Source of the DNA: Candidatus Thalassarchaeum sp.
Lineage (GTDB): Archaea; Thermoplasmatota; Poseidoniia; Poseidoniales; Thalassarchaeaceae
Reading direction: 5' to 3'
NCBI GenBank assembly: GCA_022449345.1
Contig: JAKURL010000002.1
Span: 36,302 to 100,301 of the forward strand
DNA: 64,000 nt
Each line of letters begins with the position of its first letter. Positions within the stretch are counted from its first letter, which is position 1. Below the pieces are notes generated by a model. The model searched no databases. It was not told where the DNA came from and saw only the letters and a list, made by a program, of their open reading frames with translations. The position numbers were made by a program, and so were the translations under genes. Below are positions 23,706 to 61,181 of this stretch, piece by piece.

Positions 23706-23754
23706 GCACTCCGCTCCTTTGTCGAACTCAAGTCCTTTTCGCGTCTAGAGGTTC

Positions 23755-24741
23755 TCATATGGTTGCTCTATCAACCTTCAACTCAAATCGCAACCAAGAC
23801 TCTTGCAGTTCGTGCCCGTCGCTATTTCCGTAGGCGATTGGGGGTGGTAAGAGAGTAACGTGAGTGGTTCCAGTATCTATACCGGGAATTAGTCCTCTAT
23901 CTCCATCGATGTCGAGTCCAATTGCTGACCATCCGAATCCCTGAATGAAATTGTCGTCATCACCCGCGGTGACGATTAGATCACCTTCGTCAAGAAGTTC
24001 ATCAGTGTCGGCATCCCATACCTTGTAATGGACCTCAAGAGTATCTCCATCACTTGCATGCAAATCTCTTGGATTAGAACCTTCGAAGATGTGCACGTCT
24101 AGAATAACTTTAGCCTCTGGAACACGTAGGTGGGAAGCCTGAATCTGGATATCGTGCTCGGTTACCGCATTATTCAGTTCAATCTCGACAATTACAGTTT
24201 CATTTACCCCAATTTCATTTAGGGTTAGATCTGTATCTCCTTCTGAGGCAAATACGACCTCTCCACCAGTTATTTCAAGAACAATATCTAGCGTTTGGTT
24301 ACCTCTATTGTAAACTGCAACACTGGCTCTGTCGTCATCTCCTTGATGCTCCCAATCACATCGCAATTCGCCAGGATAGAGGAAGACTTCGTCCTGTTCA
24401 GAGAGAACATCCGGCCAATCCCAGTCTCCTAATCTAGAGTCACAGGTGTCGAATAACAAGTCAACTTCCCAATACCATCGATCATTTTCATCCTTAAACA
24501 GGTCTTCGTCAGTCATGGAAAATGCATCCTCATTGACCTTTGTGAATACATATACGCTGTATCCAACAACGATTGTTGAAACGATTAGCAGGGCAGCGGT
24601 AGCTAAAGAGAGCAAAATTGCTGCCCGCGGAATCGCCATTTCGTTGATACCAAGCGGTACAGTGGGGTGCTCGACCTCATCGGGAGTATCTGAGATCCAA
24701 CTGCGGGACACGATATGCGACCATACCCCGTCAGTCATCAA
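23755..24741 (-). CDS. membrane-anchored FKBP-type peptidyl-prolyl cis-trans isomerase
   Basis: N-terminal TM (AAILLSLATAALLIVSTIVVGY); C-terminal FKBP domain (GDTLEVHYKVWDADTDELLDEGDL...PGIDTG...PPPIAYG). Confidence 0.7.
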   Translation of the reverse strand: MMTDGVWSHIVSRSWISDTPDEVEHPTVPLGINEMAIPRAAILLSLATAALLIVSTIVVGYSVYVFTKVNEDAFSMTDEDLFKDENDRWYWEVDLLFDTCDSRLGDWDWPDVLSEQDEVFLYPGELRCDWEHQGDDDRASVAVYNRGNQTLDIVLEITGGEVVFASEGDTDLTLNEIGVNETVIVEIELNNAVTEHDIQIQASHLRVPEAKVILDVHIFEGSNPRDLHASDGDTLEVHYKVWDADTDELLDEGDLIVTAGDDDNFIQGFGWSAIGLDIDGDRGLIPGIDTGTTHVTLLPPPIAYGNSDGHELQESWLRFELKVDRATI

Positions 24742-24756
24742 GGTTAGTGTCAGAAG

Positions 24757-27700: not shown

Positions 27701-28551
27701 CCTATCCAGAGATTGGAGGCAGCGACTCCGAGCGCTGCGAGGTTTCCAGAGCCTCGATGCAGCGCTAGACCATGAAGAAGTAAAGTAGCGATTAGAATCA
27801 TCACTGCGACTCCAATCTCTCCACCGATTGAGCCAGCAGTGGAGCCGATTGCCAAGAGAACTAGAGTCGCTTGGGCGGCAATCGCGTCGTGGTCGTGACG
27901 ATAGGCAACGAATACGTTGAGTGCAACCAGTAAAAGCAACAGAATCGCCAATACTTCTACTGATATCGGAAGGAAACCACCTAATTCCCAGTGGTTTAAC
28001 TCGATTGCAAGACCATAGAGAACTTTCATCGAAATTATGACCCAAGAGACTCCAAGCAAATGCAGATTCTTGTCAGGAACCCATCGCTCACCAAGGGTGA
28101 ATCCGACAGTGGCGAGAACTAGAAGTAACGCTAAGGATACAGCGGGAGGGAATGTTGTACCAGCAACCACACTCAGGGCACTGAAGACGAATATCATCGA
28201 TACCATCAGTGACCAATTGACTCGACGCTCTCCCTCCTTTGCCATCGAAGTCACTATGTCATCCTCTGGAGCACTCAGCACACTCCCATCAGCGGCTATT
28301 GAGCCCGGTTCCTTTCCAGTAGTTTCTTTGAATGGATCGAAGACATCACCTAGGGCATCATCATCTTGAATATTCTCTTCAGCCTCGGACGGTGTGATGC
28401 CGGAATCAACCTCTTCTTTGCCAGCATCACCTAAACCGAGATCACCAATGTCGATGTTTGCACCAATTTTGAATCGACGTTCGCGAATCACGCTGTCGTC
28501 CTTCTCATCGTTCACGCGCCTACGAGGAACGGCATTCGGCGATAACCGCAT
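24757..28551 (-). CDS. very large polytopic integral membrane protein (1264 aa, more than 30 predicted TM segments), function unknown
   Basis: Continuous ORF; hydrophobic helices throughout; hydrophilic acidic N-terminal region of about 110 aa. Confidence 0.7.
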   Translation of the reverse strand: MRLSPNAVPRRRVNDEKDDSVIRERRFKIGANIDIGDLGLGDAGKEEVDSGITPSEAEENIQDDDALGDVFDPFKETTGKEPGSIAADGSVLSAPEDDIVTSMAKEGERRVNWSLMVSMIFVFSALSVVAGTTFPPAVSLALLLVLATVGFTLGERWVPDKNLHLLGVSWVIISMKVLYGLAIELNHWELGGFLPISVEVLAILLLLLVALNVFVAYRHDHDAIAAQATLVLLAIGSTAGSIGGEIGVAVMILIATLLLHGLALHRGSGNLAALGVAASNLWIGMHAITSGFTAGSLIIEPLDTPLILFLLLMIVSGINASMAARFAREDNWFSKGFKVAGLGQPGLWGVSISLGMVGALMAVASSREDSGYALGMVTFLAGAFGGSYLVVRGVEKLRVAIPLLSGAALFSLLLIMGEFTESLSPFDRYETFTIFASILTGFVILRDQNRVTDRVLWVGSVGVLLLLVILIPAEAEADGGDGGIALLALLTTLHIGTAILAIIRQAPSLAGATVLLPWTWVLLQEFVVESFRTVMISNGWTDPGNVIELASTPFAAYLIVSVVLMLIVNLQLGEIGVNLASGFLGITEISASIRDSGVLQLWSMGLWLPMVTIIVMAHAGGFTAITLLAVVWAVSLSHLGAEFVGRRLGGPVALMGIIAVSVATLGWKHGLDEMWIILMLVATASILYRGNPEDEPVFTNGMALMSLPLIIALYSKDPGRILESTDSIPELDLSMTSVACTGLVMAFYLPRAEKMEKLLKPAAAALWLLVITIGLSIQLENETSAMAGIGLFILSTLWLVARGEIRAELRTMTKRDQLLAMAGQDKVGKLSLGTGELATFDPKRIELEQKRKKKRHLTATDDDSELYTTDISHRPTIVLLVLILVLGTVIVWGLIFSSSPFILLTAGIFATVLVAIARLRTKQLDLDLPTVMGIEMPIAYAIIGLILALISGHLGPGASNKELLDLAVVTILILQFVIISLYQRDNLLDRIPIAIDWFVLPLVLGRLIGALLVESLPFPFTVDPFDGDLILWQIPWLILEALLIFTIIIDAMIDARRSSVGRETHLGSSGRGLRALAYVMVSWGPAGVLAVANAIYAGRKHRQVEGVGLAILCVPLVLYSMSTLIPQILDYLDWIILAGGFGMLGLVAASVPMRNGHWTMMAAIDCHILMLAGLTLVNEWLLYPIALFSISTTLWVVGILDLRRILRVWGFGNLLAGVGASLLMLGAASSLNAGGLFLLLAVVGAELALVTWLGQRNEEALLQD

Positions 28552-36029: not shown

Positions 36030-39000
36030 ATGTCTATACCTCCTCAACTGCCGAGCAAGCGCAGGTATGCCTTGCTTCTTGCTGCATTGATGATTTTGTT
36101 GCCTTGGTCGGCATATTCTAGTGTAAATGAGTTAGATTCTGAGTTAGAAACTCGCGAGGTTTCGCAGGCGGCATGGGGTGCTTCCGGAAGCAACGACACC
36201 GGATGGATAGATTTGATCGCGACCGGAGCAGACCCTGTTAACGGAAGTTATGCGTACAGTGACCTATTCCTACCGTTTGCTCCGGGCGCTGAAATTTCCA
36301 ATTTAACCTTCGAGATAGCCGTCAACGGCTCGGCTGGTTATTGGGCTAACGAGCCACAACTGACTCTAATGGATACACAAACTCCAATCCTTGATTGGAG
36401 AGGTTATGGTGACCTTGGTCGGCAGGATGAGATGGAGAATAATCCGCCGACCGTACTCAATGGTACACTTAGCACTCATTTGAGACCCAACTCAATCTCA
36501 GATGCTTCTTGGGAACTGCCGGCCGGAGTGACACTCACAGATATGGTAATCGAGGCATTAAGGCCTGCCGATCCAAAGATATCCTACTCAGCAGTAGACA
36601 TAGAGATTCACGACACAGCGGTAAATCCAGTAGATGGCCGATTGTATCTATTGCTAGACGATGATCTTCTTCATCTAGACGCAAGGGCTCACAAGCAAAT
36701 TGTCGATATCGAAACAGGAATCATGGGAAGATCTCTAGCAATCGACGATGATTCTGGAATACTATTGATTGGAACAGAAGATGGCTCAGTGCTTTCACGC
36801 AGTTTGTCGAATTCTGCAATTCTGCCAGACCTGCGTACTAGTGATGGTTCTCAAAACGCCGGAATCTATGCCATAACAGTAGATGATCATGGAACAATTT
36901 GGGCGGCAGGAAATTGTACCATTTACTACAAGCCGATGGGGAATGTCGACTGGAGTGATTACGATTATTGCCAGTCGTTTAACATAGAGACTCCATCTGA
37001 CATTCTCATTATTGGCGATAGTGTCTACCTTGCAACCACTAGTTCTGGAGTACACATCATCAACTACATCACCGCTTCTTCTTCAGGCAGTGTTTCAGTC
37101 TCAATAGACTCTCAAATAGATTGGAGTACTCAGAATTTCCTTTCCTCAAACCTGATTACAGACCTCGAGATAGTTGGTAATAATCTTCTAATCGCGACCT
37201 ATGACACTGGAATCAATCGTAGAGACCTTACCTCACAATCTTGGATAGCCACTTGGTCAACAAATAACTGGTTGGCATCCAATCAGATTCACGGCTTGTC
37301 GCTTACCCCCGGCTGGCTTCATATCCTTGCTGGTACGACCATTCACGCCTATGATACCAATTCACTAATCTTCCAATCACAAAATCAACTTACTTCCCTC
37401 GGTTTGTATGGAAATGGTGCTATGGCCATTCCATGGCCTTCACATTCGGTTAGAGGCCCAATCACCTCCACAGCTCTGTTTAGCGATGGTTCTGGCACTT
37501 TGGGAATGCAGATTGGTGAGAACCCAGCAGGCGCTCTTACTCTTGTCAGTAGCCCATCTGTCGAAGGCATGGCGGTAGTCTCACGCATCAATGATGGTGC
37601 GTCGGGTGAGATTTGGGTTGCTGGGGGTAAAATAATCGATCGATTTGACGAATCAGATCGGGCTTGGGAGATTCCAATCGACATTAGTGACTACGTCAAC
37701 AATCCAGGTCAGATCGTTGCGATTGAACAGGATGGCAACGAGAAGGTTTGGATTGGAACGACTAATGCCGGAGTTCTGAGGCTAGAAAATACCGATGGAA
37801 CCTACATCGGAACTGTTTCAGGACTAAGTTCAACTCATGTTACTTCCTTATCTTACGACGATATCAACGGTTACTTGGTAGTAGGGCATAGCCAATCTGG
37901 AATTTCCATAATCGATACCAACCAGATGACATTAGTAGATACGATAACCACTTCCGATGGTTTAGATTCTGACTTCATAAATTCAGTTACAACTCGTTTT
38001 GGAATCGCCTACATCGCTACTCCGGATAAGGGAGTAATGCGTATCGAATTATCGACTTCGACAATCATCGGCTCGTGGCAATCACTCGGTGCCGATAATT
38101 TGGATGCAACACCGGTTGCAGTCGATGGTGACGTTGTTTACATCGGACTCTATGAGTTCGGTATTCTAGTCGTCGATAGACTAACTGGAGATATCTCAGA
38201 CCATTGGACACAGGATACCAACACTCTACCTGACGACGACGTTCTATCATTGGAAATGGACGATTTCGGTGGTCTATTAGTCGGCTCAGAGGGCTCCTTC
38301 TCCCGTTACGATGGCAGTACTTGGACCACTATGACAAGCAGTGGCCAATGGTGGAATCAACCTAGTGTATTCTACGATGTCACCAGCGACGGAGATGGGC
38401 TGTACGCTGGAACTAACAGAGGTGCTTGCAAGTGGGATTGGCAGTATCAATTCCAAGATTGTGTAAGCTCTGGTGATGGCCTCGAGAGTCGTTTCGTGTA
38501 TACCATAGAGATGCTAGCACCAAACCGTGCTTACACGGGTGGAAACTCCGGAGCTGGTATCGTCAATATGGATAATTTCTCAGTAATTGAGACTTGGACC
38601 GCCGGCGACAACACACAGCGCTCGCGTACGGTCAAGGTTGACGATATTCTCTACCTTGGATTCGAGAACACCGGCATAGCCCGATATGATTTGACAAATA
38701 ATCAGTGGTTGACTACTTGGGACGGAGATCAAGGATACATCAACGACGATGATGTAACCGCCTTAGTTCCAGGGGAAACATACGGAACAATTTGGGCAGG
38801 CGGAGATTTTGGTCTGACATTAATCGATGTCGTGAATGACGTAGTATTGATTGCTTGGGATAGAGGTTCGAATACCAACGGCCCTACACTTTCTAATTCA
38901 ATTCCTGCAGATATAGAAATCTACGGAGATGTATTGCATTACTCCACACAACGCTCAACCGGTTGGTGGGGCGGTGGCTCTGACAGCATCTATCGCATCA

Positions 39001-42000
39001 ATCTGACAACAAATTCTAGCATGACCACGCTTGAGGTTAACGATCAAACAGGTTGGACTGGAGTGGTGAACGGAATTGGAGTTGTAAACGACCAATTGTG
39101 GATTGGCATTAGACCTTCTCAGACTTGGAACGATGGAGATGGAACAATTGCTCGCTGGAATATGACCAACGAATCTTGGGAGGAAGATCTGGCAACAATC
39201 GGAAATGTTCTACGCGTTAATGCTCGATTCCTAGGTGATTGTTTCCCATTGAACACAAGTTCTTGTGAACTTTGGGTGGCGTATGGGAATTACATTCTAA
39301 GACGATTCAATGCAGATACAATGATGCTTCTAGATGAGTGGGTCGACGTTGACGGTCCAATTCGAGGAATGACCGAATTCGAAGGAGAATACCTATTCGC
39401 TAGCATGAATGGTATTCTTCGATGGAATCCAGTAAACGAAACTTGGCTAGATTCTTGGACTCCTGGAGACGGCTTACCATCGAGTTCTGAGGAAGAGTTC
39501 TACTCGATGGCGGTTATCGAAAACGATCTTTGGTTGGGTACAATGGAGTCCAGTGGCTGGAACTCAAACGCTCAGGTACTGAGAAAGAACGGAACAGACG
39601 GGAATTGGACATCTTGGGATTTAGGAACAGGAGACATCCCTGACGGATATCCAGCCGACATCAAGTTGTGTGATGATATTGTCCACATTGCTATCGGCGC
39701 TCGATTTTTCTGGGGCAATCAAGGTGGTGTTGCCCGTTATGACTTCGCAGACCATGATTCAGATTCCTTGACCAATGAATGGATTAGTGCGATGACTTCT
39801 GGTAGCTCGGGTTTATCCAATAATGATCCAAGGGCCGTGGCTTGCGATGAGAGCAACGACATTTTGTACATTGCATACGATACTGAGGGTGTAGGCATCG
39901 ATCGCTATAACTACAATACGGACACATACCTTTCCACCCTTACTTCAGTCGATGGAATCAGCGAGGACAGAATATTCCCTGGTGGATTGTTACATGACAA
40001 CAACGTCCTCTTGGCCGCTCACCAATTCGATAACCATGGAGGAATTTCTCGTTTGATTACTTCCGGAACAGCAACCGCAAATGGCCAAATCCTAGACCCC
40101 GGAATGGACGGCTGTTCTATCGAAAGAGCTCCTTCGTCTACAGGTCAAGTAGCCTACGCTGTGGGGCGCTCAGGTCAGACAACAGGACTGAACAGAGTCG
40201 ATAGGCTAGACAGTTCAGGATTAATCGCAAGTGGCTATGATGAACTCACTGGACTAACCAGTGGCCGCGTGATGGAAATAATCTCCAATGACACACATGT
40301 ATGGGTTACCTCATCCTTGGACTCTAACTCCTACTACGGGTCCTCGATTCTTCAGGGAGAAATTCTCTCGAATGGCTCTGTTAGATGGGAATTTGGTTAC
40401 AATTTCCGAGAGGATATAGTCAATGAAATGATGTTGGATGGTGAGACTCTATGGGTCACCACGGCAGGCCGAGGCCTGAAGGCAATTGACTTGAAACAGC
40501 GCCGTGTAACCTCCACTCCGCCGGCACTACACGCACAGATGGATGGAATGGTGTTGGAGAACGGTACGATGTATGTTGGACTAATGGGTAATCAAGGTTC
40601 AGCGGCCGGATTCCAGATGTTCAATACCCAAAATGCTCAGTGGGGTCATGGCAGTCTAATCGCCGGATTACCGAGCAACCTTGTGCGAGATTTCATCATT
40701 TACGGTGACCACATCATGATCGCTACCCATGGTGGAATTGGAATGTACAATACCACCCGTGACGATTGGGATAATCCGATAACCACAATCGATGGATTAC
40801 CTTCACCGATAATCACCCATTTACACGCCCTCAACACAACCATCCAGGGCGGTGGAAAGGTTCTGGCTGGCGGTGCAGCAGGTATGACGGTCCTGCATCA
40901 ACACAACCTTTCGGTCCTCAACACATTAGGATTCAATGATGGACTGATGGGTAATACCGTGAGTGGAATAGTAGAGGCAGGACCGAGTTCCCGCGTCGTT
41001 CAAAACGCCGATGGAACGAACACCACTCTTTACCACGACGCGTCGATATTCATCTCACACAATGGACAAGGGCCAACTCGACCCGGTGTAGCGGCCTGGG
41101 ATTTGGCCACCGATATGGCAAATGGTACTTACAATATCGACATGGTTCCAAGTAATGACATTAGGGCGATTGTTGCTGATGACTGGGGAGTTCACATCGC
41201 TACCGACGTCGCTCCTTTGGTACATTGGAACGGTAGCATGATGCAGATGGAAACTGGAGTTAGTACCAGTTCCTTACTTTCTTGGCCTCCATACGAGATG
41301 CACAGTGACGGCCAGCACATCGTGGTGATGAGTCCTCGTGGTCTCGACGTTGTAGATGTAGACGGAAGACACAATGTGGTGACTAGCCGAGTGATTACTG
41401 GTCTGCAAGGTGGATATGTCGACTTCAGCGGTTTCTATGCTGTTGGGAATGACGGTCTTCATGTCTACAAACCAGTAATTAGTCTGCAAGAGAATTCACG
41501 TGAGCATCAACGCCGTGCAGATCCGCTAACAGTATTGTATAGTGGCCGAAATTGGGATATTACCAATACAACTCATCCAGGAATGTCAACGGTTTTGGTA
41601 ACTCCTGATAATCCGATTGAGATTCCTGAGACCTCTAATGTTGCTGCCCCTGGTAAACTTCCGATGCACGTCGGAACAATGACGATGATGGCACCTCAAC
41701 GAGGTGCCTGGGTGTGGGCTCAGTCTACGTCGTTGAATTATACTGGAAGTTGGGATTTGGCTACCTCTAATGGAGGAATTCAACAGGCCTTCCAGTCAGC
41801 CATTTCTGCAGTAGGGCCTGGTACCTCTTCTGCAATTCTTCATGTCCAAATGCAGTCACCTCAGGATGGAGCCATTCAGGTTAGGTTGACTTATGATTGG
41901 GAGCGAATCGAGGCTCCAACTGTCATTACCAAACTTGAGGATAGACCCAATGATGGTGGAGGCGTAATCGAAGCCTCTTGGCTACCTGCAGAGGATGCTG

Positions 42001-44618
42001 CTTGGCATGCCTATAGATTGTATGTATGGGATTCGTCGGTTGACCCACTATGGGAACCAACTCAGGAAGACCTAGATTCATTCTCTACCTACATGAGATC
42101 CAACTTCTGGTCTCGCACAAATGCCACCATTACCCGAGCGGATAATGATGGACTAACCGAGCAATTGCGAGATGACCGTCAATACCGAGCAGCGGTGGTT
42201 ATCGAATATGCAGATGGCTCACTAGGTGTACCGATGGCATATCCTCACAATGTAACTCCGACTGATGAGATTCCAGCAGCCCCTGCTTGGATGACAGCTA
42301 ATCCAGTATCGGGAGGAGCAGCGGGTACCATCTTCCTAGAATGGGCCGCCTGTACAGAACTAGATCCGGATAGAGTAAGAATTTGGGCGGTCCAGCAGGA
42401 GATTACCAGTGCAGTAGGACTTTCTGACCCATTCGAATTCCATTGGAGTACCGGAAATACAACCGCCCTGCAGCTAGAAGGCGGAGTTGCTTACTGGTTT
42501 GCTGCAGTTTGTGTTGATGAGGCTGGACAGTCATCAATCGAGAACGCCACAATAATCGGACCTGTTGTTACTGCGGGTGGTTTGGATGATGGAATTCCAC
42601 CTGTTCCTATCACTGGAACAACAGCCATCGACGTTCCTAACGACGAAGGTGGTAGAATCAACGTCACTTGGGATGCAAATACCGAGGAGGACTGTACCTA
42701 CTACACGGTCTACACCTTGCCAGCCTCTGGCTGGCAACCCCCTTCAACGGTCGATGGTTGGCCAGTTGCAGGATATACAGACAGTTGTGAAACGACTTCG
42801 ATTATCATCGACTCTATAGGAGAAAGTAGTCTAATCGATGGAACGGTCTACTGGATAGGAGTAGTCGCTTACGATGATTGGGGCAATGGGGATGTCGACA
42901 ATGTATTGGTTGTCGACGCCACTCCTGAGGCAGATTTCGATGGTGAAGCGATACCACCAGACCGCGTAACTGGCCTCGAAGCTTGGGATTACCCAGATGA
43001 TGATGGAACGGCCATAGATATCCGTTGGAATCGCTCAGCCGCCGATGATTTCTCATTCTATACAGTCTGGGTATCCGAATACCCGTTGAATAATGTAACC
43101 GAGATATGGGAATTGTGTAGTGAAAATCCATCCTCGTGTGGTCTCGTTATCATTAACCAGCGTCAGTTTGGGGCAAATTTCCAGTTAGAATACACCGCGG
43201 AGAGAGCCCTTTACGGTAGTTCGGCAGATACCTTAGAGGCGACTCCAATCCACTCGATGATTCCGCTCTACGTGACAATCACCATTCACGATATCAGTGG
43301 AAATGTGCACCTAAGCGATCTTTCGGAACATATGGTCTTGGTCACTCCAATGGATAACCGTGGAGATATTTCTCCGCCAGACCGCCTAGAAGCGCCGGTA
43401 CTGAGAGATAGGCCCAACGATGCCGGAAATGCGATGTTCGTAGAATTCCAACAAAGTGATGCTTCTGACATTGCGGAATATTGGATTTACGCGGTAATTG
43501 ACACTCCAGTTCTATTGGAGAGAACCGATGACTTACACCCCGCGATGGTTATCGACAGGGAACAAGGTCTACCAGTTCTGCTAACCGAGTTCTCTGCTCA
43601 TGGAGATGACGAGGCGACACCACTGGTGCCAAACCGCCGAATTTACGTGGCGGTAGTCGCCGTTGATTCATCTGGCAATGCTTGGATGGACAACCTCGCT
43701 AGCACATGGATCGAGTTGTCCGACGAACTCTCCGCAGATCCATGTCCAGAGTGCCCAGATGTTAGTGGGCTACGGGCTAGTTGGAATGCTGCGGGTTCAC
43801 TGATTGAGGTAAATTGGGATAATGTCGAAGACCCGAAGTATGCAAGCTACTACGCCTTTGTCAGCCTTGACACATTCGATGATACACGTAACGCAACTTT
43901 GGTCAAGTCTGGAATGAGAGACACTATTTTGATTCTCAACGAATTCAACGGCGAGATGATTGACCGTGAAGAGAGATATTGGATTGAGATTGTAACTTGG
44001 AACGGCCAAGTCCACACATATCACGCCGACCCGATTGAGGTTTCACCTTGGGAGGAATCTTCCTTTGGTACAACCCAACCAGGAGATGATTCAGCAGGAG
44101 AGTCTTGGGTTGAGAGAATACTTGCAGGGGAGATGAACATGGTAATCCTCGCGCTATCGGTAGTAATGCTGCTAATCGGCGCACTGATGTTCATCAGACC
44201 AAGAGGAGAAGCGGCTCCAGAACCTTGGGAGATGGGCGCGCTCGAGGTCGAATTGGAAGAACAACTAGAGCGCGAGGCGGCAGGTCTCAGCGACGACGAA
44301 GAATTCGGCGTTGATGATTTGGAGATTGATGGTGGCTTGGTAGCCAATGCTCGGCGCAAAGACGGAGATGCTCCTGATTCAAGCGAGAGCGATTATACAG
44401 AGACAGCGGCGAGTGCTGGAGTACCTGTAGAAGAAGACCTCGGCCCAACACCATCTGCTGAAAGCGAGGTCATCGACGAATTACTCGGTGCCGAGGAAGA
44501 AGAATTAGATCTCGGCGATCTAGATGATATGGCCGATGACCTAAACTTGGATGAAAAGCCTGATGATGATTCCGAAGACGAGGATATTGACACCTCCTTC
44601 CTCGACGAGATGCTCTGA
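36030..44618 (+). CDS. giant secreted surface protein (2862 aa): signal peptide, many beta-propeller (Reg_prop/YVTN-like) repeats, FN3-like modules, a C-terminal TM anchor and an acidic cytoplasmic tail
   Basis: N-terminal signal; a repeating G..vW.GT..G.. pattern; C-terminal MVILALSVVMLLIGALMFI followed by a D/E-rich tail. Confidence 0.85.
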   Translation: MSIPPQLPSKRRYALLLAALMILLPWSAYSSVNELDSELETREVSQAAWGASGSNDTGWIDLIATGADPVNGSYAYSDLFLPFAPGAEISNLTFEIAVNGSAGYWANEPQLTLMDTQTPILDWRGYGDLGRQDEMENNPPTVLNGTLSTHLRPNSISDASWELPAGVTLTDMVIEALRPADPKISYSAVDIEIHDTAVNPVDGRLYLLLDDDLLHLDARAHKQIVDIETGIMGRSLAIDDDSGILLIGTEDGSVLSRSLSNSAILPDLRTSDGSQNAGIYAITVDDHGTIWAAGNCTIYYKPMGNVDWSDYDYCQSFNIETPSDILIIGDSVYLATTSSGVHIINYITASSSGSVSVSIDSQIDWSTQNFLSSNLITDLEIVGNNLLIATYDTGINRRDLTSQSWIATWSTNNWLASNQIHGLSLTPGWLHILAGTTIHAYDTNSLIFQSQNQLTSLGLYGNGAMAIPWPSHSVRGPITSTALFSDGSGTLGMQIGENPAGALTLVSSPSVEGMAVVSRINDGASGEIWVAGGKIIDRFDESDRAWEIPIDISDYVNNPGQIVAIEQDGNEKVWIGTTNAGVLRLENTDGTYIGTVSGLSSTHVTSLSYDDINGYLVVGHSQSGISIIDTNQMTLVDTITTSDGLDSDFINSVTTRFGIAYIATPDKGVMRIELSTSTIIGSWQSLGADNLDATPVAVDGDVVYIGLYEFGILVVDRLTGDISDHWTQDTNTLPDDDVLSLEMDDFGGLLVGSEGSFSRYDGSTWTTMTSSGQWWNQPSVFYDVTSDGDGLYAGTNRGACKWDWQYQFQDCVSSGDGLESRFVYTIEMLAPNRAYTGGNSGAGIVNMDNFSVIETWTAGDNTQRSRTVKVDDILYLGFENTGIARYDLTNNQWLTTWDGDQGYINDDDVTALVPGETYGTIWAGGDFGLTLIDVVNDVVLIAWDRGSNTNGPTLSNSIPADIEIYGDVLHYSTQRSTGWWGGGSDSIYRINLTTNSSMTTLEVNDQTGWTGVVNGIGVVNDQLWIGIRPSQTWNDGDGTIARWNMTNESWEEDLATIGNVLRVNARFLGDCFPLNTSSCELWVAYGNYILRRFNADTMMLLDEWVDVDGPIRGMTEFEGEYLFASMNGILRWNPVNETWLDSWTPGDGLPSSSEEEFYSMAVIENDLWLGTMESSGWNSNAQVLRKNGTDGNWTSWDLGTGDIPDGYPADIKLCDDIVHIAIGARFFWGNQGGVARYDFADHDSDSLTNEWISAMTSGSSGLSNNDPRAVACDESNDILYIAYDTEGVGIDRYNYNTDTYLSTLTSVDGISEDRIFPGGLLHDNNVLLAAHQFDNHGGISRLITSGTATANGQILDPGMDGCSIERAPSSTGQVAYAVGRSGQTTGLNRVDRLDSSGLIASGYDELTGLTSGRVMEIISNDTHVWVTSSLDSNSYYGSSILQGEILSNGSVRWEFGYNFREDIVNEMMLDGETLWVTTAGRGLKAIDLKQRRVTSTPPALHAQMDGMVLENGTMYVGLMGNQGSAAGFQMFNTQNAQWGHGSLIAGLPSNLVRDFIIYGDHIMIATHGGIGMYNTTRDDWDNPITTIDGLPSPIITHLHALNTTIQGGGKVLAGGAAGMTVLHQHNLSVLNTLGFNDGLMGNTVSGIVEAGPSSRVVQNADGTNTTLYHDASIFISHNGQGPTRPGVAAWDLATDMANGTYNIDMVPSNDIRAIVADDWGVHIATDVAPLVHWNGSMMQMETGVSTSSLLSWPPYEMHSDGQHIVVMSPRGLDVVDVDGRHNVVTSRVITGLQGGYVDFSGFYAVGNDGLHVYKPVISLQENSREHQRRADPLTVLYSGRNWDITNTTHPGMSTVLVTPDNPIEIPETSNVAAPGKLPMHVGTMTMMAPQRGAWVWAQSTSLNYTGSWDLATSNGGIQQAFQSAISAVGPGTSSAILHVQMQSPQDGAIQVRLTYDWERIEAPTVITKLEDRPNDGGGVIEASWLPAEDAAWHAYRLYVWDSSVDPLWEPTQEDLDSFSTYMRSNFWSRTNATITRADNDGLTEQLRDDRQYRAAVVIEYADGSLGVPMAYPHNVTPTDEIPAAPAWMTANPVSGGAAGTIFLEWAACTELDPDRVRIWAVQQEITSAVGLSDPFEFHWSTGNTTALQLEGGVAYWFAAVCVDEAGQSSIENATIIGPVVTAGGLDDGIPPVPITGTTAIDVPNDEGGRINVTWDANTEEDCTYYTVYTLPASGWQPPSTVDGWPVAGYTDSCETTSIIIDSIGESSLIDGTVYWIGVVAYDDWGNGDVDNVLVVDATPEADFDGEAIPPDRVTGLEAWDYPDDDGTAIDIRWNRSAADDFSFYTVWVSEYPLNNVTEIWELCSENPSSCGLVIINQRQFGANFQLEYTAERALYGSSADTLEATPIHSMIPLYVTITIHDISGNVHLSDLSEHMVLVTPMDNRGDISPPDRLEAPVLRDRPNDAGNAMFVEFQQSDASDIAEYWIYAVIDTPVLLERTDDLHPAMVIDREQGLPVLLTEFSAHGDDEATPLVPNRRIYVAVVAVDSSGNAWMDNLASTWIELSDELSADPCPECPDVSGLRASWNAAGSLIEVNWDNVEDPKYASYYAFVSLDTFDDTRNATLVKSGMRDTILILNEFNGEMIDREERYWIEIVTWNGQVHTYHADPIEVSPWEESSFGTTQPGDDSAGESWVERILAGEMNMVILALSVVMLLIGALMFIRPRGEAAPEPWEMGALEVELEEQLEREAAGLSDDEEFGVDDLEIDGGLVANARRKDGDAPDSSESDYTETAASAGVPVEEDLGPTPSAESEVIDELLGAEEEELDLGDLDDMADDLNLDEKPDDDSEDEDIDTSFLDEML

Positions 44619-48431: not shown

Positions 48432-49850
48432 ATGCAGAAAACAAAGAATGCGAGCATGATGATTGCGCTGCTCCTTGTTTTGATGGCTGGTTCCGTTGGC
48501 GTTTCCGCCGATGGTTCTGACCCACTCGACCCCTCCGACGGAGGGGCCGACTGGGACGGAGACGGCCTGACAAACGCAGAGGAGACAGCTGAAGGCACGG
48601 ACCCCACCAACCCCGACACTGACAACGATGGTCTACCGGACGGTTGGGAGGTTGCATACGGACTAAATCCAAACTCGGCTAGTGACGCTAACGCGGACCC
48701 AGACGGTGATGGATTGACGAACTCTCAGGAGTACGCGTCCGGAACCAACCCCAACGCGGCTGACACCGACGGTGATGGGCAGAACGACGCAAGCGATCCT
48801 TTCCCGAACGATCCGAACAACGGATCGATGTCGGATTCGGATGGCGACGGTATCCCAGATGCGTATGATCCGGACTACGGTGACAACGGAGAGGGAACTG
48901 GAGACGGCGGAACTGACGGTGGCGGAGATTCCGACCAAGACGGAGAGGGCCAAGGTCAGAACCAAGGATCCCAATCCGGTCAAGACGGTCAGCAGGGCAG
49001 CGGTCAGCAGGGTGGAGAACAATCCAACCAGCAAGACAACGGCCAAGGCCAGCAGCAAGGCGGAGAACAATCCGGCCAGCAGGGTGACCAAGAGAGTCAA
49101 GACCAGAATGGTAACAACCAGAATGGTCAGAACCAGCAGCAGCAAGGCCAGACCCAAGACAACAGTCAGGGTCAGCAGGGCCAGCAGTCCGACCAGCAGC
49201 AGAGTCAGCAGCTCGACAACCAAGACCAGAACGGTGAGAACGACAACGATGGCGATGGTATCCCAGACGACCTGGACTTCGATGATGACCAGGACGGCAT
49301 CCCCGACAATGTGGATGAATTCCCTGAGGACCACGACAACGACGGCATCAATGACGCTGAGGATGATGATGACGATGGCGACGGCATAGACGACCGCGAG
49401 GAAGTCAATGACGGCGATCCTAACTCAGATATCTACGATCACGACAACGATGGCGTTCGCGACAACATCGATTTCGACATCGACAATGACGGCATCGACA
49501 ATTGGAATGACGTTGGACCGAACGGTGAGGACTACTCACGCGATCACGACAACGACGGACTAAATGACGGAGTCGACCCAGACGACGATAACGACGACAT
49601 CCTAGATGTCGACGAGATCGACGGCGCTATCGGTCTCTGGAGATACGACCACGACAACGATGGTCTAACCGACAGAGTCGATACCGATGACGACAACGAC
49701 GGACTTTCCGACTGGTTCGAGCAGAACGATGGCTGGGATAACACCGGCCAGTTCGATCACGACAACGACGGCATCCCAGATCATCTGGATGACGACGATG
49801 ACGCCGACGGCATCCTCGATGAGGATGAAAACGACGGCAGCCTACTGTGA
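48432..49850 (+). CDS. secreted, highly acidic protein with thrombospondin-type-3-like Ca-binding Asp repeats (DxDxDGxxDxxD) flanking a Q/G/N-rich low-complexity core
   Basis: Signal peptide; at least 12 repeats of the DHDNDG..D..D / DTDGDG type; a roughly 100-aa Q/G/N/S tract. Confidence 0.75.
   Translation: MQKTKNASMMIALLLVLMAGSVGVSADGSDPLDPSDGGADWDGDGLTNAEETAEGTDPTNPDTDNDGLPDGWEVAYGLNPNSASDANADPDGDGLTNSQEYASGTNPNAADTDGDGQNDASDPFPNDPNNGSMSDSDGDGIPDAYDPDYGDNGEGTGDGGTDGGGDSDQDGEGQGQNQGSQSGQDGQQGSGQQGGEQSNQQDNGQGQQQGGEQSGQQGDQESQDQNGNNQNGQNQQQQGQTQDNSQGQQGQQSDQQQSQQLDNQDQNGENDNDGDGIPDDLDFDDDQDGIPDNVDEFPEDHDNDGINDAEDDDDDGDGIDDREEVNDGDPNSDIYDHDNDGVRDNIDFDIDNDGIDNWNDVGPNGEDYSRDHDNDGLNDGVDPDDDNDDILDVDEIDGAIGLWRYDHDNDGLTDRVDTDDDNDGLSDWFEQNDGWDNTGQFDHDNDGIPDHLDDDDDADGILDEDENDGSLL
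49240..49840 (+). repeat. DNA-level tandem degenerate repeats (gaccacgacaacgacggc...) encoding the Asp-repeat units
   Basis: The gacaacgacgg / gatgacgacg motifs recur many times; explains the spurious antisense ORFs. Confidence 0.6.
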
Positions 49851-56622: not shown

Positions 56623-56985
56623 TCAAAACTCGTAATATCCTGGTCTACACCATGCTGGAAGGCTTGTTGCAGCATCTGGATGAGTCAGGCCAACAAACAG
56701 AACCATGACGATGATGAAGAAGGCAGGGAATAGGGCTGTGAGCGTCAGGATTCCAGAATCCGCATCACCGTACAAGTGCATGAAAATCGCTGCTATCATG
56801 ATGAATTTTGGAATTGCAATGAAAGTTAGAATCCACAATGTCAAGACCTTCTCTGTAGTGTCATAGTCAGCGGCAAACTCGGATAGGTCTAATCCGACCG
56901 CCGCCACTTCAATGAAAGTCAAAATCATCAAGCCGTAGAAATTCATCCAGTAGGGGTCTTGCCCCAAAATCTTGTAATGCGCCAT
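56623..56985 (-). CDS. small 3-4 TM membrane protein in the cox operon (possible subunit IV-like)
   Basis: 120 aa, hydrophobic, directly downstream of coxC. Confidence 0.45.
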   Translation of the reverse strand: MAHYKILGQDPYWMNFYGLMILTFIEVAAVGLDLSEFAADYDTTEKVLTLWILTFIAIPKFIMIAAIFMHLYGDADSGILTLTALFPAFFIIVMVLFVGLTHPDAATSLPAWCRPGYYEF

Positions 56986-56996
56986 ATCTAATCACC

Positions 56997-58067
56997 TCAA
57001 TACAGATAGAAGAATGGGAACACCAGTACCCAAACCAGGTCAACAAAGTGCCAATAGAGACCGAAGTACTCAATCGATACAGCGTTATTAGGAGTGTAAA
57101 GTCCCTTCCAAGCCTTGAATGTCATGTAGCTCAAACCAATGATTCCACCCGCAACGTGAGCACCGTGAGTTCCGGTAGTCACGTAGAACAGGGATGCGGA
57201 GACTTGGATGTTCGCCACCATGTGTGCGCCTGTGGCCTCATCGACGTAGGAGTGGTGTTGGTAGTGGTCGGCATTGATTGTGTAGCCTTCGTCGACTAAG
57301 GAGATGATGTCGTGCTCGTGAAGGCCGATGGCGCTGATTTCTGGAACATAGAATCCAATGAACCACTCGATCATCTTCAGGGTAAGGAACAGACATGCGA
57401 GGAACCAAGTTGCCCCCAGGTATCGATATACCTTCTTTCGGCGTGCCTCGTCATCTAAGTCAGGCATCTTGGCATAGCGAAGTGCCTGTACAATTGTGAA
57501 TGAGGACAAAATCAGTGCGAATGTGTTGATTGCTCCGGGTGCTAGATGCCACCAGCTGGAAGCGATTAGATGGCTTGCTGGTTCGAAGCAAGTTACTGCA
57601 ACACCTTCCTGCCATCCGGTTGGATTTGTCGCTGGGTCGAACATTCCGCGATCGAAAACTGTGCCACAGTTCTCGATTCCGAGTCGGTATCTCATGTAGG
57701 TGCTGAATAGAGATGTGAATACCATCATCTCCGACATTAGGAAGACCCAAACTCCTACTTTTCGAATCTGGACTCCACGGAATGGAACTCCTGTGGCTAA
57801 TGGCTCGTAATGTCCGTCAAAGGACAGGTCCTGCCTCCACCAGATGAATAGAGCAAATCCGATTACTAACAATCCTAGCAGAATCATCGGAATGTTACCG
57901 GGGTTGTAAGTTCCGTACGACCAAGCTTCGGCCATAGCGAAGAGGAAAATCGCGATACCAATGGAGAGGAATATTGGGGAGAACGAATTGTGTGGAGCAC
58001 CATGGCCCCAGTCGTGTGGACCCCATGGCTCAGGAGTATGATAGTCATGGTCGTAATCGCCGCTCAA
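56997..58067 (-). CDS. coxC: cytochrome c oxidase subunit III
   Basis: 7-TM protein ending ...YWHFVDLVWVLVFPFFYLY; conserved His residues. Confidence 0.85.
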   Translation of the reverse strand: MSGDYDHDYHTPEPWGPHDWGHGAPHNSFSPIFLSIGIAIFLFAMAEAWSYGTYNPGNIPMILLGLLVIGFALFIWWRQDLSFDGHYEPLATGVPFRGVQIRKVGVWVFLMSEMMVFTSLFSTYMRYRLGIENCGTVFDRGMFDPATNPTGWQEGVAVTCFEPASHLIASSWWHLAPGAINTFALILSSFTIVQALRYAKMPDLDDEARRKKVYRYLGATWFLACLFLTLKMIEWFIGFYVPEISAIGLHEHDIISLVDEGYTINADHYQHHSYVDEATGAHMVANIQVSASLFYVTTGTHGAHVAGGIIGLSYMTFKAWKGLYTPNNAVSIEYFGLYWHFVDLVWVLVFPFFYLY

Positions 58068-60421
58068 TGGCTCACCTCCTCGTGGTCTTCAGGCACCATC
58101 AAGCGACTGAACCACTTTCCAACTCGACCAGGCTCGTTAGCAATGTGCTCGTTTGCATCCTTCAATACTGGCAGGTTGTGCCAATCGAAGGAAGGAGTTG
58201 GTGGAGGCGAGGAAGTCATCCACTCGAATGACCATCCACCCCATGGGTCTGCCGGTGCCTTATCTCCTCTAACTAAACTGAGTAGCATATTTGCAACCAA
58301 AATGAAGTTCGAGAAGAAGAACAAGAATGCACTAACCGAGATGAATAGATTCCAGTCGGCGGCCCACTCAGGCAGGTTGGTGAAATCTTCAGTGGTGATG
58401 AAGTAAGTGTGTGTTCGTCGAGGCATTCCAACTACACCTAGTCGGTGCATTGGCCAGAAGATGCCATTGTAGGTGACGAATGCGGTTAGGAAGTGTAGGG
58501 TTCCTAACTTCTCGTCTAGCATTCGTCCAGTCATCTTTGGATACCAGTAATAGATTGCAGCGAAGAATCCGAAGACGGTTCCTCCGACCAATACGTAGTG
58601 GAAGTGAGCTACTACGAAGTATGTCTCGTGAAGGTGGGTGTCCATAGCGATTGAAGGGAAGAACATGCCTGAAATTCCGCCAAGGGTGAAAGTTACTATG
58701 AAGCCGAGCGCCCACAATGTATGCGTACGATAGACAAGCGAACCTCCGTGCATTGTTTTCAGCCAATTGAAAATCTTTATTCCGGTTGGAACAGCAACCA
58801 ACATTGTAGTCATCATCGTAACAAATCGCAAGGTGGGCGACATTCCAGATGTCAACATGTGGTGACCATAGACAATGAAAGATAAGATTCCAATTCCGGC
58901 CAACGCGTAAACCATCGAGCGGTAGCCGAAGATTGAGCGTCGTGCAGATGTCGCAAGCACCTCAGATATTACTCCGAATGCAGGCACGATAACCACGTAT
59001 ACCTCAGGATGACCGAAGTACCAGAACAAGTGACTCCATAGCAATGGATCTCCACCTGCAGAAATATCGTAGAATGCTGTTGAAATCGTTCTGTCTAGAT
59101 AAACTTGAATCAATCCAACTCCGAATGCTGGAATCGAAAGGAATAGCATGAGGTTGGCAACTAAGATTGACCAAGTGAACAATGGCATCTGCATCCAACC
59201 CATTCCTTCAGCACGCATGACTGCCATTGTGGTAAGGAAGTTGATTCCAGTTAGGGTTGAGGAAGCAACCAACATGATTTGTCCTGCAACCCACATTGTT
59301 ACTCCTGTGTGTGCTCCAGCGGTGACGATGTATGGTGCGTAACCCGTCCAACCTGTATCCGCGCCTTCTCCAGAGAAAACTCCGGTGAAGATTAGTAGGG
59401 CAGCGAATGGCTGTAGCCAGAAGGATAGCGCATTGAGTCTCGGCATTGCAAGGTCCGGTGCACCGATTTGTAGTGGTACAATCCAATTTGCAAATCCAGC
59501 GATTAGTGGCATCGCAGCCAAGAAAATCATCGTGGTTCCGTGCAATGTGAAAAACTGATTATACTGGTCTTGAGATATGAATCCCATCTCGGGTCCGGCT
59601 AATTGTAAGCGAATCATCATTGCAAGAATTCCACCGATGCCGAGGAAGAACATACCCTGAACGAAATACAGAGTTCCAATCTTCTTGTGGTCGGTACTAG
59701 TAAGCCACTCGGTAATCCATGGAGCTAGATGCTCCCAGTCGAAAGCATCTGGATTAGTTCTGTAAAATCCGTATAGTATTGTAATTACCAGTAAGATACC
59801 TGAGATGATAATCAACGTCGCTAGGACAGTGAACGGGTCTGCTGGGTCTAGAGCAGCACCGAGCGATCCCGCAACGGTAATGCTTAGGCGATTCCACTTA
59901 TCTTCAGGGCCTTGCACACCATCTCCGTTTACGGAATTGACGTGGAGGACGAAGTCGACATTTCGTCCATGGCTAGGTGCAGTCCATTCAACGGTCCAAC
60001 TGCGGTAGTCATTACCCGCCTCTGTATGGGTTACTTCTGAAGAATCACGTGATTGTACGGTGGCATCCACTGGAGTGATTTCGCCGCCAGATGCCCAGAG
60101 ATTGAATCCACCAAGGTTAGCTGCACCATCGGTTGAAGGCCCACCAGTGAATGAAATTGTAAGTTCATAGGTTTCTGAGACGTTATATTGCTCAGGGAGT
60201 CCATCTAGGGCAACTACAACTCCTGTATCGGCAACTCCGTTGTGGCAATTACAGCCGCCCGATTTCACCTGTTCATAGCCAATACCATTCGGCAGGGAGT
60301 TGACTGCCGGTGATACCACCATTGCAATCGAAATCAGGATTAGTACAACCATACTTCTCGTGATGAGTGTCTTCTTCTCCATCCTATTTACCTCCTCAAG
60401 CGTGAACGTTGACTCCCGCAA
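58064..60421 (-). CDS. coxA: cytochrome c oxidase subunit I (heme-copper oxidase) fused to an N-terminal ~200-aa extracytoplasmic reeler-like domain
   Basis: Core CoxI motifs (GHPEVY, WAHHMF-like, multi-TM); the N-terminal extension has a signal/anchor, GGCNCHNG, ...GGFNLWA..., VTHTE...WTVEWTAPSHG...VDFVLHV. Confidence 0.9.
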   Translation of the reverse strand: MRESTFTLEEVNRMEKKTLITRSMVVLILISIAMVVSPAVNSLPNGIGYEQVKSGGCNCHNGVADTGVVVALDGLPEQYNVSETYELTISFTGGPSTDGAANLGGFNLWASGGEITPVDATVQSRDSSEVTHTEAGNDYRSWTVEWTAPSHGRNVDFVLHVNSVNGDGVQGPEDKWNRLSITVAGSLGAALDPADPFTVLATLIIISGILLVITILYGFYRTNPDAFDWEHLAPWITEWLTSTDHKKIGTLYFVQGMFFLGIGGILAMMIRLQLAGPEMGFISQDQYNQFFTLHGTTMIFLAAMPLIAGFANWIVPLQIGAPDLAMPRLNALSFWLQPFAALLIFTGVFSGEGADTGWTGYAPYIVTAGAHTGVTMWVAGQIMLVASSTLTGINFLTTMAVMRAEGMGWMQMPLFTWSILVANLMLFLSIPAFGVGLIQVYLDRTISTAFYDISAGGDPLLWSHLFWYFGHPEVYVVIVPAFGVISEVLATSARRSIFGYRSMVYALAGIGILSFIVYGHHMLTSGMSPTLRFVTMMTTMLVAVPTGIKIFNWLKTMHGGSLVYRTHTLWALGFIVTFTLGGISGMFFPSIAMDTHLHETYFVVAHFHYVLVGGTVFGFFAAIYYWYPKMTGRMLDEKLGTLHFLTAFVTYNGIFWPMHRLGVVGMPRRTHTYFITTEDFTNLPEWAADWNLFISVSAFLFFFSNFILVANMLLSLVRGDKAPADPWGGWSFEWMTSSPPPTPSFDWHNLPVLKDANEHIANEPGRVGKWFSRLMVPEDHEEVSH

Positions 60422-61181
60422 TCATGTATGCGTGGTCGTCACCACAATACTCTGTGCAGAGTAGTAGAAAGTCCTCGACCTCATCTGCAAGAACCCACTG
60501 AGTAGTAACCTGACCAGGCTGAGTATCTTCCTTGATTCCTAAAGATACGAACCAAGGTGCATGAGTGACGTCCTCGGAGGTCATAATTGCAAGATAAGCC
60601 TCACCTGCCTTCAAAGAAATAAGTGGGCTGTCCCTTCCCTCAATTTGTGCGAATCCTGTATCACATATGTCCGCATCTAAATCATAACAATCGAAACTCC
60701 AAACCCACTGTTTTCCAGAAATTCCAATCTCGTGATAACAATCAGCTTCGTACAATCCTTCGGATTGATTGAAGATTAGATTAGAAGATTCTCCGACGAC
60801 ACACTCATCACCAAAGAATCCGTCTTCCTCATTTGCAGCGGACCAGATATTATCCAAGGGCGCCCAAGAGATGAATGTAAGATAGACGATTAAAATAAAT
60901 GGCACTACAGTCCAAGTTATTTCCAATTTCATATTGTCATAATGAGCAGGGAAAACCCCCACTTTTAGGTCGTCAACATTGGGATTTTGACCGTCCTCTG
61001 AACGATAGAAAAATGAGTGGTGATACAACCATCCGAAGGTGAATAATCCGACCAAGGCGGACCATACAAGATACTCGTTCCAGAGGTCATCGTATAGAGG
61101 CGTGATGAGACCCATCGCAATCTCCAATCCAACCGCGTGCGAAAGCCCCTCATAAGTGTGAGGTAGGTCAGTCCTGAGCAA
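60396..61181 (-). CDS. coxB: cytochrome c oxidase subunit II (CuA)
   Basis: Two N-terminal TMs and the CuA motif H...CTEYCGDDHAYM. Confidence 0.85.
   Translation of the reverse strand: MLRTDLPHTYEGLSHAVGLEIAMGLITPLYDDLWNEYLVWSALVGLFTFGWLYHHSFFYRSEDGQNPNVDDLKVGVFPAHYDNMKLEITWTVVPFILIVYLTFISWAPLDNIWSAANEEDGFFGDECVVGESSNLIFNQSEGLYEADCYHEIGISGKQWVWSFDCYDLDADICDTGFAQIEGRDSPLISLKAGEAYLAIMTSEDVTHAPWFVSLGIKEDTQPGQVTTQWVLADEVEDFLLLCTEYCGDDHAYMIAGVNVHA

What the first reader, a model, noticed from the sequence alone, without database searches (positions are those of the whole stretch)
58064..60421. Cytochrome oxidase subunit I carries an N-terminal reeler-like extracytoplasmic domain
The 785-aa CoxI has a signal/anchor followed by about 170 aa whose motif order (GGCNCHNG ... 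ELTISFTGG ... GGFNLWA ... VTHTE ... WTVEWTAPSHG ... VDFVLHV) parallels reeler/DOMON-type beta-sandwich domains (C..H..G; GF.l.A; vTHt...W.AP...v.F...v). The canonical CoxI core then starts at HKKIGTLYF. Reeler and DOMON domains in other systems accompany ferric reductases and cytochrome b561. Attaching one to the terminal oxidase could mean an unusual electron-donor or metal-handling interface, given that coxB with CuA is still present.
Basis: inference. Interest (0 to 1): 0.6.

Follow-up and report, generated by a model that had tools for sequence, protein, structure and literature searches.

The report
Cytochrome-f-like domain fused to oxidase
The main subunit of the oxygen-reducing respiratory enzyme of a Marine Group II archaeon carries an extra outward-facing domain, shaped like plant cytochrome f and animal 'reeler' domains, that probably feeds electrons into the enzyme and may explain how these abundant ocean archaea respire without ordinary cytochrome c.

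Summary
One continuous gene encodes a signal peptide, a ~145-aa beta-sandwich domain, one extra membrane helix and an intact A-type CoxI. It probably starts at ATG 60382, giving 772 aa. About 43 species-level Marine Group II genomes keep the same continuous fusion, so it is not an assembly error.

Of 261 relatives, all keep Cys59-His60, 260 keep Cys57 and 257 keep His132. The motif sits where cytochrome f has its haem-binding CxxCH. Rare relatives carry CxxCH or Cx4CH instead.

A paralogous subfamily is the first gene of the Marine Group II Rieske/cytochrome b6-like operon, the slot of cytochrome f or c1. Other relatives are fused to plastocyanin-like or b561-like modules, or lie beside a blue copper protein and a cox operon.

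Best reading: a built-in electron-entry module, probably haem-bearing, possibly copper. The cofactor is untested, and profile comparison with cytochrome f is not significant.

The parts
58064..60382 (-). coxA fusion gene. Probable ATG start at 60382 (772 aa); the maximal ORF starts at TTG 60421 (785 aa). The aa numbers in the other rows use the 785-aa frame.
60296..60382 (-). Sec-type signal peptide MEKKTLITRSMVVLILISIAMVVSPAVNS (aa 14-42). The predicted cleavage leaves the mature N-terminus LPNGIG. There is no conserved twin-arginine motif.
   Evidence: The site pattern P-[AS]-[AVT]-x-[SA] | x-P-x-G-I is conserved in the family.
59867..60295 (-). Choice-of-anchor V domain (reeler / cytochrome-f fold), aa 43-185, extracytoplasmic.
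60242..60253 (-). Cys57-Asn-Cys59-His60 (CxCH), the candidate cofactor site.
   Evidence: C59 and H60 in 261/261 relatives, C57 in 260/261. Spacing variants CxxCH, Cx4CH, longer forms and one single-Cys form exist. hhalign places it on cytochrome f CANCH.
60026..60028 (-). His132 (of 'THT'), the second conserved histidine and a candidate distal ligand.
   Evidence: 257/261 conserved; Gln in 3 and Ala in 1
59756..59833 (-). Extra transmembrane helix ('TM0', aa 197-222) that returns the chain to the cytoplasm ahead of CoxI helix 1.
58184..59707 (-). Canonical haem-copper oxidase subunit I core (aa 239-746).
   Evidence: TIGR02891 622 bits; Pfam COX1 480 bits; ligand motifs
60396..61181 (-). coxB (subunit II) with an intact CuA motif CTEYCGDDHAYM (60423..60458) and the QWVW electron-entry tryptophan.
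56997..58067 (-). coxC (subunit III).
56623..56985 (-). Prokaryotic subunit IV (COX4_pro).

Best explanation
The N-terminal domain is a Sec-exported redox module held at the outer face of the oxidase by its own membrane helix. It acts as a built-in electron-entry centre for the aa3-type oxidase, as the cytochrome c domain does in caa3 oxidases, although here it is fused to subunit I and has a cytochrome-f/reeler fold. I commit to this mechanism. A cofactor sits at the conserved Gly-Cys-x-Cys-His site. It is most likely a covalently bound haem, with His60 as proximal ligand and His132 or the mature N-terminal amine as distal ligand. Electrons leave the Marine Group II b6f-like Rieske/cytochrome b complex through that complex's own subunit of the same family, which occupies the cytochrome f/c1 slot. 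They then pass directly, or through a PGF-CTERM-anchored plastocyanin-like protein, to the domain on CoxI, and on to CuA, haem a and haem a3-CuB. Shown here: the fusion, the topology, the fold, the conserved residues and the gene contexts. Inferred: redox activity (about 0.6-0.7), haem as the cofactor (about 0.4 overall), and the order of electron transfer.
Against: No cofactor has been demonstrated. To my knowledge CxCH is not an established haem-c attachment motif. No CcmC/CcmF/CcsA-type WWD motif and no CxxCH were found in the window, and no WWD motif in about 0.93 Mb of Marine Group II sequence held here. That sequence is only a small, redundant part of the genomes. Profile-profile comparison with cytochrome f is not significant (P 0.004 with 3 sequences, P 0.03 and probability 1.6% with 123), so homology to cytochrome f is unproven and the fold is a common beta-sandwich type. 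Eukaryotic reeler domains have no known cofactor (PMC10691727). His132 is replaced in 4 of 261 relatives. CuA is intact, so a soluble donor could reduce the oxidase without help.
Confidence: 0.58

Rival explanations
1. The domain binds copper rather than haem. Either it is a redox centre built from Cys57, Cys59, His60 and His132, or it is a built-in metallochaperone that hands Cu to CuA, CuB or the blue copper carrier (Cox11, PCuAC and Sco are the analogues).
For: Two Cys and two His are near-invariant. Export is Sec-type, which suits metal loading outside the cell with no maturation machinery, and no Ccm-type genes were seen. Marine Group II chains rely on blue copper proteins, and the family is fused or adjacent to plastocyanin-like domains. 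Cox11 is an Ig-like domain with a CFCF motif (own knowledge).
Confidence: 0.17
2. The domain carries no cofactor. It is a structural, docking or adhesion module: for example a landing pad for the blue copper carrier, a supercomplex or S-layer contact, or an assembly factor. The CxC would then form a disulfide or a structural site, as befits an 'adhesion-type' reeler domain.
For: Eukaryotic reeler domains are treated as adhesion modules with no known cofactor. 'Choice-of-anchor' families are typical surface proteins. Relatives occur with Ig-like, CARDB and fn3 arrays. Many stand-alone copies sit in unrelated neighbourhoods, next to ribosomal genes, ftsZ or transporters.
Against: An invariant Cys-His dipeptide plus a second histidine in 257 of 261 relatives is unusual for a purely structural site. 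The Rieske protein needs a redox acceptor, and the operon encodes no other outward-facing candidate. The repeated fusion to three different kinds of redox module is not explained.
Confidence: 0.2
3. The fusion is an artefact: a separate upstream gene joined to coxA by a sequencing or assembly error.
For: Two public contigs call the domain as a separate gene (L001, L006).
Against: In L001 the 'separate' gene runs on into COX1 helix 1 (…HKKIGTLYFVAGLFFLGVGGIMAMII*), and COX1 resumes in another frame. That is a frameshift within the fusion. L006 is a 0.1x-coverage contig with many split genes. About 43 independent species genomes, including a long-read contig, have the continuous frame. The extra helix makes the topology consistent.
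Confidence: 0.01

Closest known systems
NCBIfam NF041895, choice-of-anchor V domain (and NF041894, MXAN_6652 family)
   Same: Significant full-length match (93-97 bits, cutoff 42). Typical members are about 200-230 aa: signal peptide, this domain, then a C-terminal anchor such as PGF-CTERM.
   Different: The family has a name but no assigned function. Here the 'anchor' is a whole cytochrome oxidase subunit I. I found no paper using the family name.
Reeler domain (Pfam PF02014; F-spondin reelin-N, PDB 3COO/2ZOT/2ZOU)
   Different: The query scores below the Pfam cutoff (15.3 against 21 bits). It is prokaryotic and carries a CxCH motif. Reeler domains have no known cofactor or redox role.
Cytochrome f (PetA) of the b6f complex
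   Different: The motif is CxCH, not CxxCH. The small domain of cytochrome f is absent. There is no Pfam PetA hit, and profile comparison is not significant. Haem binding is untested. Here the domain is fused to an oxidase.
caa3-type cytochrome oxidases (cytochrome c domain fused to subunit II)
   Same: Same logic: the terminal oxidase carries its own donor-side electron-transfer domain next to CuA (own knowledge).
   Different: The fusion is to the N-terminus of subunit I through an extra helix. The domain is a beta-sandwich, not a class I cytochrome c.
CYBDOM proteins (SDR2/FRRS1, Drosophila CG8399: reeler-DOMON-cytochrome b561)
   Same: A reeler-type domain joined to a membrane electron-transfer module. 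The archaeal relative P0126 joins this domain to DUF4079, which has a weak prokaryotic b561 match.
   Different: There is no DOMON domain here, and the partner is a haem-copper oxidase. The role of the eukaryotic reeler domain is itself unknown (PMC10691727).

Membership tests
NCBIfam NF041895 choice-of-anchor V | Score above the curated cutoff over the full model | tested here: met
   93.3 bits (whole protein) and 96.8 bits (N-terminus alone) against a cutoff of 42; model positions 3-147 of 150
Pfam Reeler PF02014 | Score at or above the gathering threshold (21 bits) | tested here: not met
   Query 15.3 bits, E 0.029. Twelve of 19 relatives hit at E<=10 (best 7.4e-5), and relative P0074 scores 25.4 bits
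Pfam Reeler PF02014 | Reeler beta-sandwich fold | tested here: met
Cytochrome f (PetA) | Large-domain fold | tested here: met
Cytochrome f (PetA) | CxxCH haem attachment near the mature N-terminus | tested here: not met
   The query has CxCH at the corresponding place. Only 2 of 185 relatives surveyed have CxxCH
Cytochrome f (PetA) | Detectable sequence or profile homology | tested here: not met
   No Pfam PetA hit. No PDB sequence hit at E<=10. hhalign P 0.004 and 0.03, probability 8% and 1.6%
Cytochrome f (PetA) | Small-domain insertion | tested here: not met
   The domain is about 145 aa, a single sandwich
Cytochrome f (PetA) | Subunit of a Rieske / cytochrome b6 / subunit IV complex | tested here: inconclusive
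   Met by operon context for the paralogous subfamily, not for the CoxI-fused copy. No biochemical evidence.
c-type cytochrome (any) | Covalently bound haem | not testable with these tools
   Needs spectroscopy or mass spectrometry. No maturation genes were seen in the limited sequence available.
DOMON superfamily | DOMON profile or fold match | tested here: not met
A-type haem-copper oxidase subunit I | COX1 profile and metal-ligand histidines | tested here: met
   Pfam COX1 480 bits. HPEVY, HH and HFHY present. TIGR02891 scores 622 bits, below its equivalog cutoff of 670.75.
caa3-type oxidase | Class I cytochrome c domain (CxxCH) at the C-terminus of subunit II | tested here: not met
   coxB is 261 aa and matches only COX2 and COX2_TM in Pfam (COX2_TM below its cutoff). 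No CxxCH in any window ORF of 80 aa or more.
Cox11/CtaG copper chaperone | Cox11 profile and CFCF motif | tested here: not met
   No Pfam hit. The motif is G-C-x-C-H, at the N-terminal edge of the domain.

The most novel reading that the evidence does not exclude
The choice-of-anchor V / prokaryotic reeler family is a previously unrecognised class of c-type cytochrome with a contracted Cys-x-Cys-His haem site, and it is truly homologous to cytochrome f. Marine Group II archaea would then run a b6f-like complex with a cytochrome-f-type subunit and an oxidase carrying a second copy. This would fill the 'missing c1 / missing cytochrome c' gap in their respiratory chain, give cytochrome f its first relatives outside oxygenic phototrophs, and hint at a redox origin for animal reeler domains.
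Probability: 0.3. Interest if true: 0.9.

Novelty: new variant of a known kind. Interest (0 to 1): 0.74.

Why it matters
Marine Group II archaea are among the most abundant archaea of the surface ocean and remain uncultured. Published genome surveys note that they have a cytochrome b, a Rieske protein and a cytochrome c oxidase, but no cytochrome c1 and no canonical cytochrome c. How electrons reach the oxidase is therefore open. This finding supplies a concrete candidate: one domain family that heads the b6f-like operon and is also welded onto oxidase subunit I. The proposal can be tested by expressing a 145-aa domain. It would also give a first functional lead for a named but uncharacterised family with about 3,250 cluster representatives. 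It bears on the unknown role of reeler domains in eukaryotic b561 ferric reductases and on the obscure ancestry of cytochrome f.

Tried and rejected
- **DOMON relationship.** No profile or fold support.
- **Rieske-type [2Fe-2S] site, suggested by CxCH-G.** Rejected. There is no box I, the signal is Sec-type rather than a conserved Tat signal, and the Cys spacing varies.
- **Cox11-like CxC chaperone.** No profile or fold support; kept only within the copper rival.
- **Separate upstream gene or frameshift.** Rejected.
- **Sequence search of the PDB with the family profile.** No hits at E<=10.
- **hhalign against cytochrome f.** Run with 3 and then 123 sequences. The alignment is collinear and places C-NCH on CANCH, but it is not significant. 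The 120 cytochrome f sequences retrieved were all green-algal, at 82% identity or more, so the profile stayed shallow.
- **AlphaFold-database fold search.** The library was unavailable.
- **The search for related loci with the family alignment.** Failed because no stretch was conserved enough. It was rerun with the single protein.
- **Second copy of the domain in the window.** None.
- **Cytochrome c maturation, Rieske, cytochrome b or blue-copper genes in the window.** None found.
- **Pfam on the Rieske-like protein.** No hit. Identification rests on motifs, the Tat signal and the literature.
- **Site geometry.** Model coordinates are not exposed by the tools, so distances between Cys57, Cys59, His60 and His132 could not be measured.
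- **Literature.** Searches for CxCH haem motifs, cytochrome f-like proteins and choice-of-anchor V found no precedent.
Full report
**The observation**

The minus-strand ORF 58064..60421 is uninterrupted and lies in a coxB-coxA-coxC-coxIV operon. The 785-aa figure counts from a TTG inside coxB. The sequence after the coxB stop reads TGA-GGAGG-taaatagg-ATG, so the likely start is ATG 60382 and the product is 772 aa. This matches the N-termini of homologues.

Pfam COX1 covers aa 247-699 (480 bits) and TIGR02891 covers aa 239-746. The CuB and haem ligand motifs are present. coxB keeps its CuA motif.

In front of the core lie a signal peptide (aa 14-42), about 145 aa of hydrophilic sequence, one hydrophobic helix (aa ~197-222) and a short linker. 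One extra helix is exactly what is needed to place the domain outside the cell and still deliver the CoxI N-terminus to the cytoplasm.

**Not an artefact**

The first homologue search returned Marine Group II (Thalassarchaeaceae) fragments. Every CoxI-linked hit (37-73% identity to the query) that was long enough ran on into '...TDHKKIGTLYF...' of the COX1 core.

Two public contigs call the domain as a separate gene:
- In L001 that 'gene' already contains COX1 helix 1 and then changes frame, so it is a frameshift within the fusion.
- L006 is a 0.1x-coverage contig full of split genes.

A scan of one genome per species found 57 loci, all from Marine Group II. About 43 have a single 745-796-aa frame from the domain into COX1, including a 1.6-Mb long-read contig. 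More diverged fusions also exist: P0055, P0057 (a different cox gene order, L007), P0090, P0114 and the 760-aa CoxI of L066.

**What the domain is**

NCBIfam assigns aa 34-179 to NF041895, 'choice-of-anchor V' (93-97 bits, cutoff 42). Pfam gives only a sub-threshold Reeler match for the query (15.3 bits). However, 12 of 19 relatives hit Reeler and one passes the cutoff.

An exhaustive HMMER search found 3,249 cluster representatives. Most are 200-230-aa proteins made of a signal peptide, the domain and a C-terminal anchor, often PGF-CTERM-like.

AlphaFold2 gives a confident beta-sandwich (pLDDT 84, pTM 0.80). Foldseek against the PDB ranks the F-spondin reeler domains first (E 7e-7 to 6e-6).

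**The conserved site**

Counts in 261 aligned relatives:

| Residue (785-aa frame) | Conserved |
|---|---|
| Gly56 | 258 |
| Cys57 | 260 |
| Cys59 | 261 |
| His60 | 261 |
| His132 | 257 |

The 'CH' pair never moves, but the distance to the first cysteine varies:
- CxCH in most members.
- CxxCH in P0129 and P0168.
- Cx4CH in four members.
- Longer loops in two members.
- No first cysteine in one member.

This is the pattern known for haem-c attachment motifs (own knowledge). It fits a rigid metal site poorly.

The signal peptidase site and the mature N-terminus (x-P-x-G-I, 8-11 residues before the first Cys) are conserved. There is no conserved twin-arginine motif, so any cofactor must be added outside the cell.

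Profile-profile alignment with cytochrome f is collinear and places GC-NCH on VCANCH. It also places 'TAPS' on 'LAPD', His132 beside Pro117 of cytochrome f, and 'VNSVNGDG' on 'GGNRGRGQ'. It is not statistically significant (P 0.004 and 0.03). The link to cytochrome f is therefore one of fold and motif position, not demonstrated homology.

**Context in other genomes**

1. A subfamily of 267-274 aa has a conserved C-terminal helix and tail. In three lineages (44-60% identity) it is the first gene of an operon containing, in order:
   - the V-protein;
   - a ~150-aa membrane protein;
   - a Rieske-like protein with a Tat signal (DRRxFM) and invariant CxHLCC...CICHSS boxes;
   - cytochrome b (PF00033, 143 bits);
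   - a 926-1334-aa protein with the Qo 'PDWY' motif plus Fer4 and CCG domains;
   - a ferredoxin.

This is a b6f-type complex with the V-protein where cytochrome f or c1 would be encoded.
2. In L066 a stand-alone V-protein sits beside a PGF-CTERM plastocyanin-like protein. The pair is divergent from a ctaB-coxB-(V-coxA)-coxC-coxIV operon.
3. P0054 joins the domain to CARDB repeats and a plastocyanin domain. P0126 joins it to Ig repeats and DUF4079, a membrane domain with a weak prokaryotic b561 match.
4. Tully (2019) noted that Marine Group II has cytochrome b and Rieske but lacks a canonical bc1. Sheridan et al. (2022) found no canonical cytochrome c Pfam families in any Thermoplasmatota.

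**Interpretation**

The simplest account is that this family is the outward-facing electron-transfer module of the Marine Group II respiratory chain. One copy accepts electrons from the Rieske protein. A second copy, fused to CoxI, hands them to CuA, probably with a lipid-anchored blue copper protein in between. The CoxI fusion would be the functional counterpart of the cytochrome c domain of caa3 oxidases.

I rate redox function at about 0.6-0.7 and haem as the cofactor at about 0.4.

The main caveats:
- CxCH has no precedent as a haem site.
- No maturation genes were seen, although only about 0.93 Mb of redundant sequence could be checked.
- Reeler domains have no known cofactor.
- The fold is a common type.

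Copper binding, and a cofactor-free docking or structural role, remain live alternatives.

**Novelty**

The domain family is named but uncharacterised. I found no paper describing the CoxI fusion, the V-protein in the Rieske/cytochrome b operon, or a cytochrome-f-like protein in archaea. I class it as a new variant of a known kind: a haem-copper oxidase with a fused donor-side domain. There is a credible route to something more novel if the CxCH site binds haem.

Noticed in passing
L070:8001-14443 (also L074:5686-12178, L076:7001-14649): The Marine Group II 'complex III' operon has an unusual member. The PDWY (Qo-site, subunit-IV-like) membrane protein is fused to a large extracytoplasmic region and a C-terminal Fer4+CCG (HdrD-like) module (926-1334 aa), and a 2x[4Fe-4S] ferredoxin follows. 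This suggests a link between the bc-type complex and a cytoplasmic thiol/disulfide or ferredoxin pool.
   Followed up: partly
L070:10121-10999, L074:7805-8668, L076:9118-9984: The Marine Group II cytochrome b is the short b6 type. That implies a b6f-type rather than a bc1-type complex.
   Followed up: partly
L070:9259-10119, L074:6947-7795, L076:8272-9105: The Rieske-like protein has a Tat signal and invariant CxHLCC and CICHSS boxes, but it gives no Pfam Rieske hit at E<=0.01. Automated annotation may therefore miss it.
   Followed up: partly
P0054 (647 aa) and P0126 (798 aa), found by the exhaustive search: Two other architectures of the same domain in archaea. One is the domain + 3 CARDB + a plastocyanin/azurin domain + a PGF-CTERM-like tail. 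The other is the domain + 5 Big_7 Ig repeats + the DUF4079 membrane domain, which has a weak prokaryotic cytochrome b561 similarity.
   Followed up: partly
L001:6001-8337 and L006:4138-6302: Public gene calls split the fusion into a 'hypothetical protein' plus a truncated COX1, because of a frameshift (L001) or a very low-coverage, error-rich contig (L006). Such calls hide the fusion in protein databases.
   Followed up: yes
window 60382-60421: The longest ORF starts at a TTG that overlaps the end of coxB by 26 nt. The real start is almost certainly ATG 60382, which is preceded by GGAGG.
   Followed up: yes
window 22404-28551 (-): Three consecutive ORFs of 433, 328 and 1264 aa have no Pfam match at E<=1e-4.
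   Followed up: no
window 36030-44618 (+): A 2862-aa ORF has only weak beta-propeller matches (PorZ_N, EML). It is probably a giant surface protein. A protein with bacterial TSP3 calcium-binding repeats lies at 48432-49850.
   Followed up: no
L002-L005, L008, L072: Stand-alone ~205-211-aa paralogues recur in fixed but non-respiratory neighbourhoods: next to ftsZ/radA, or directly after ribosomal S24e-S27e genes. Not every family member is encoded with respiratory genes.
   Followed up: partly
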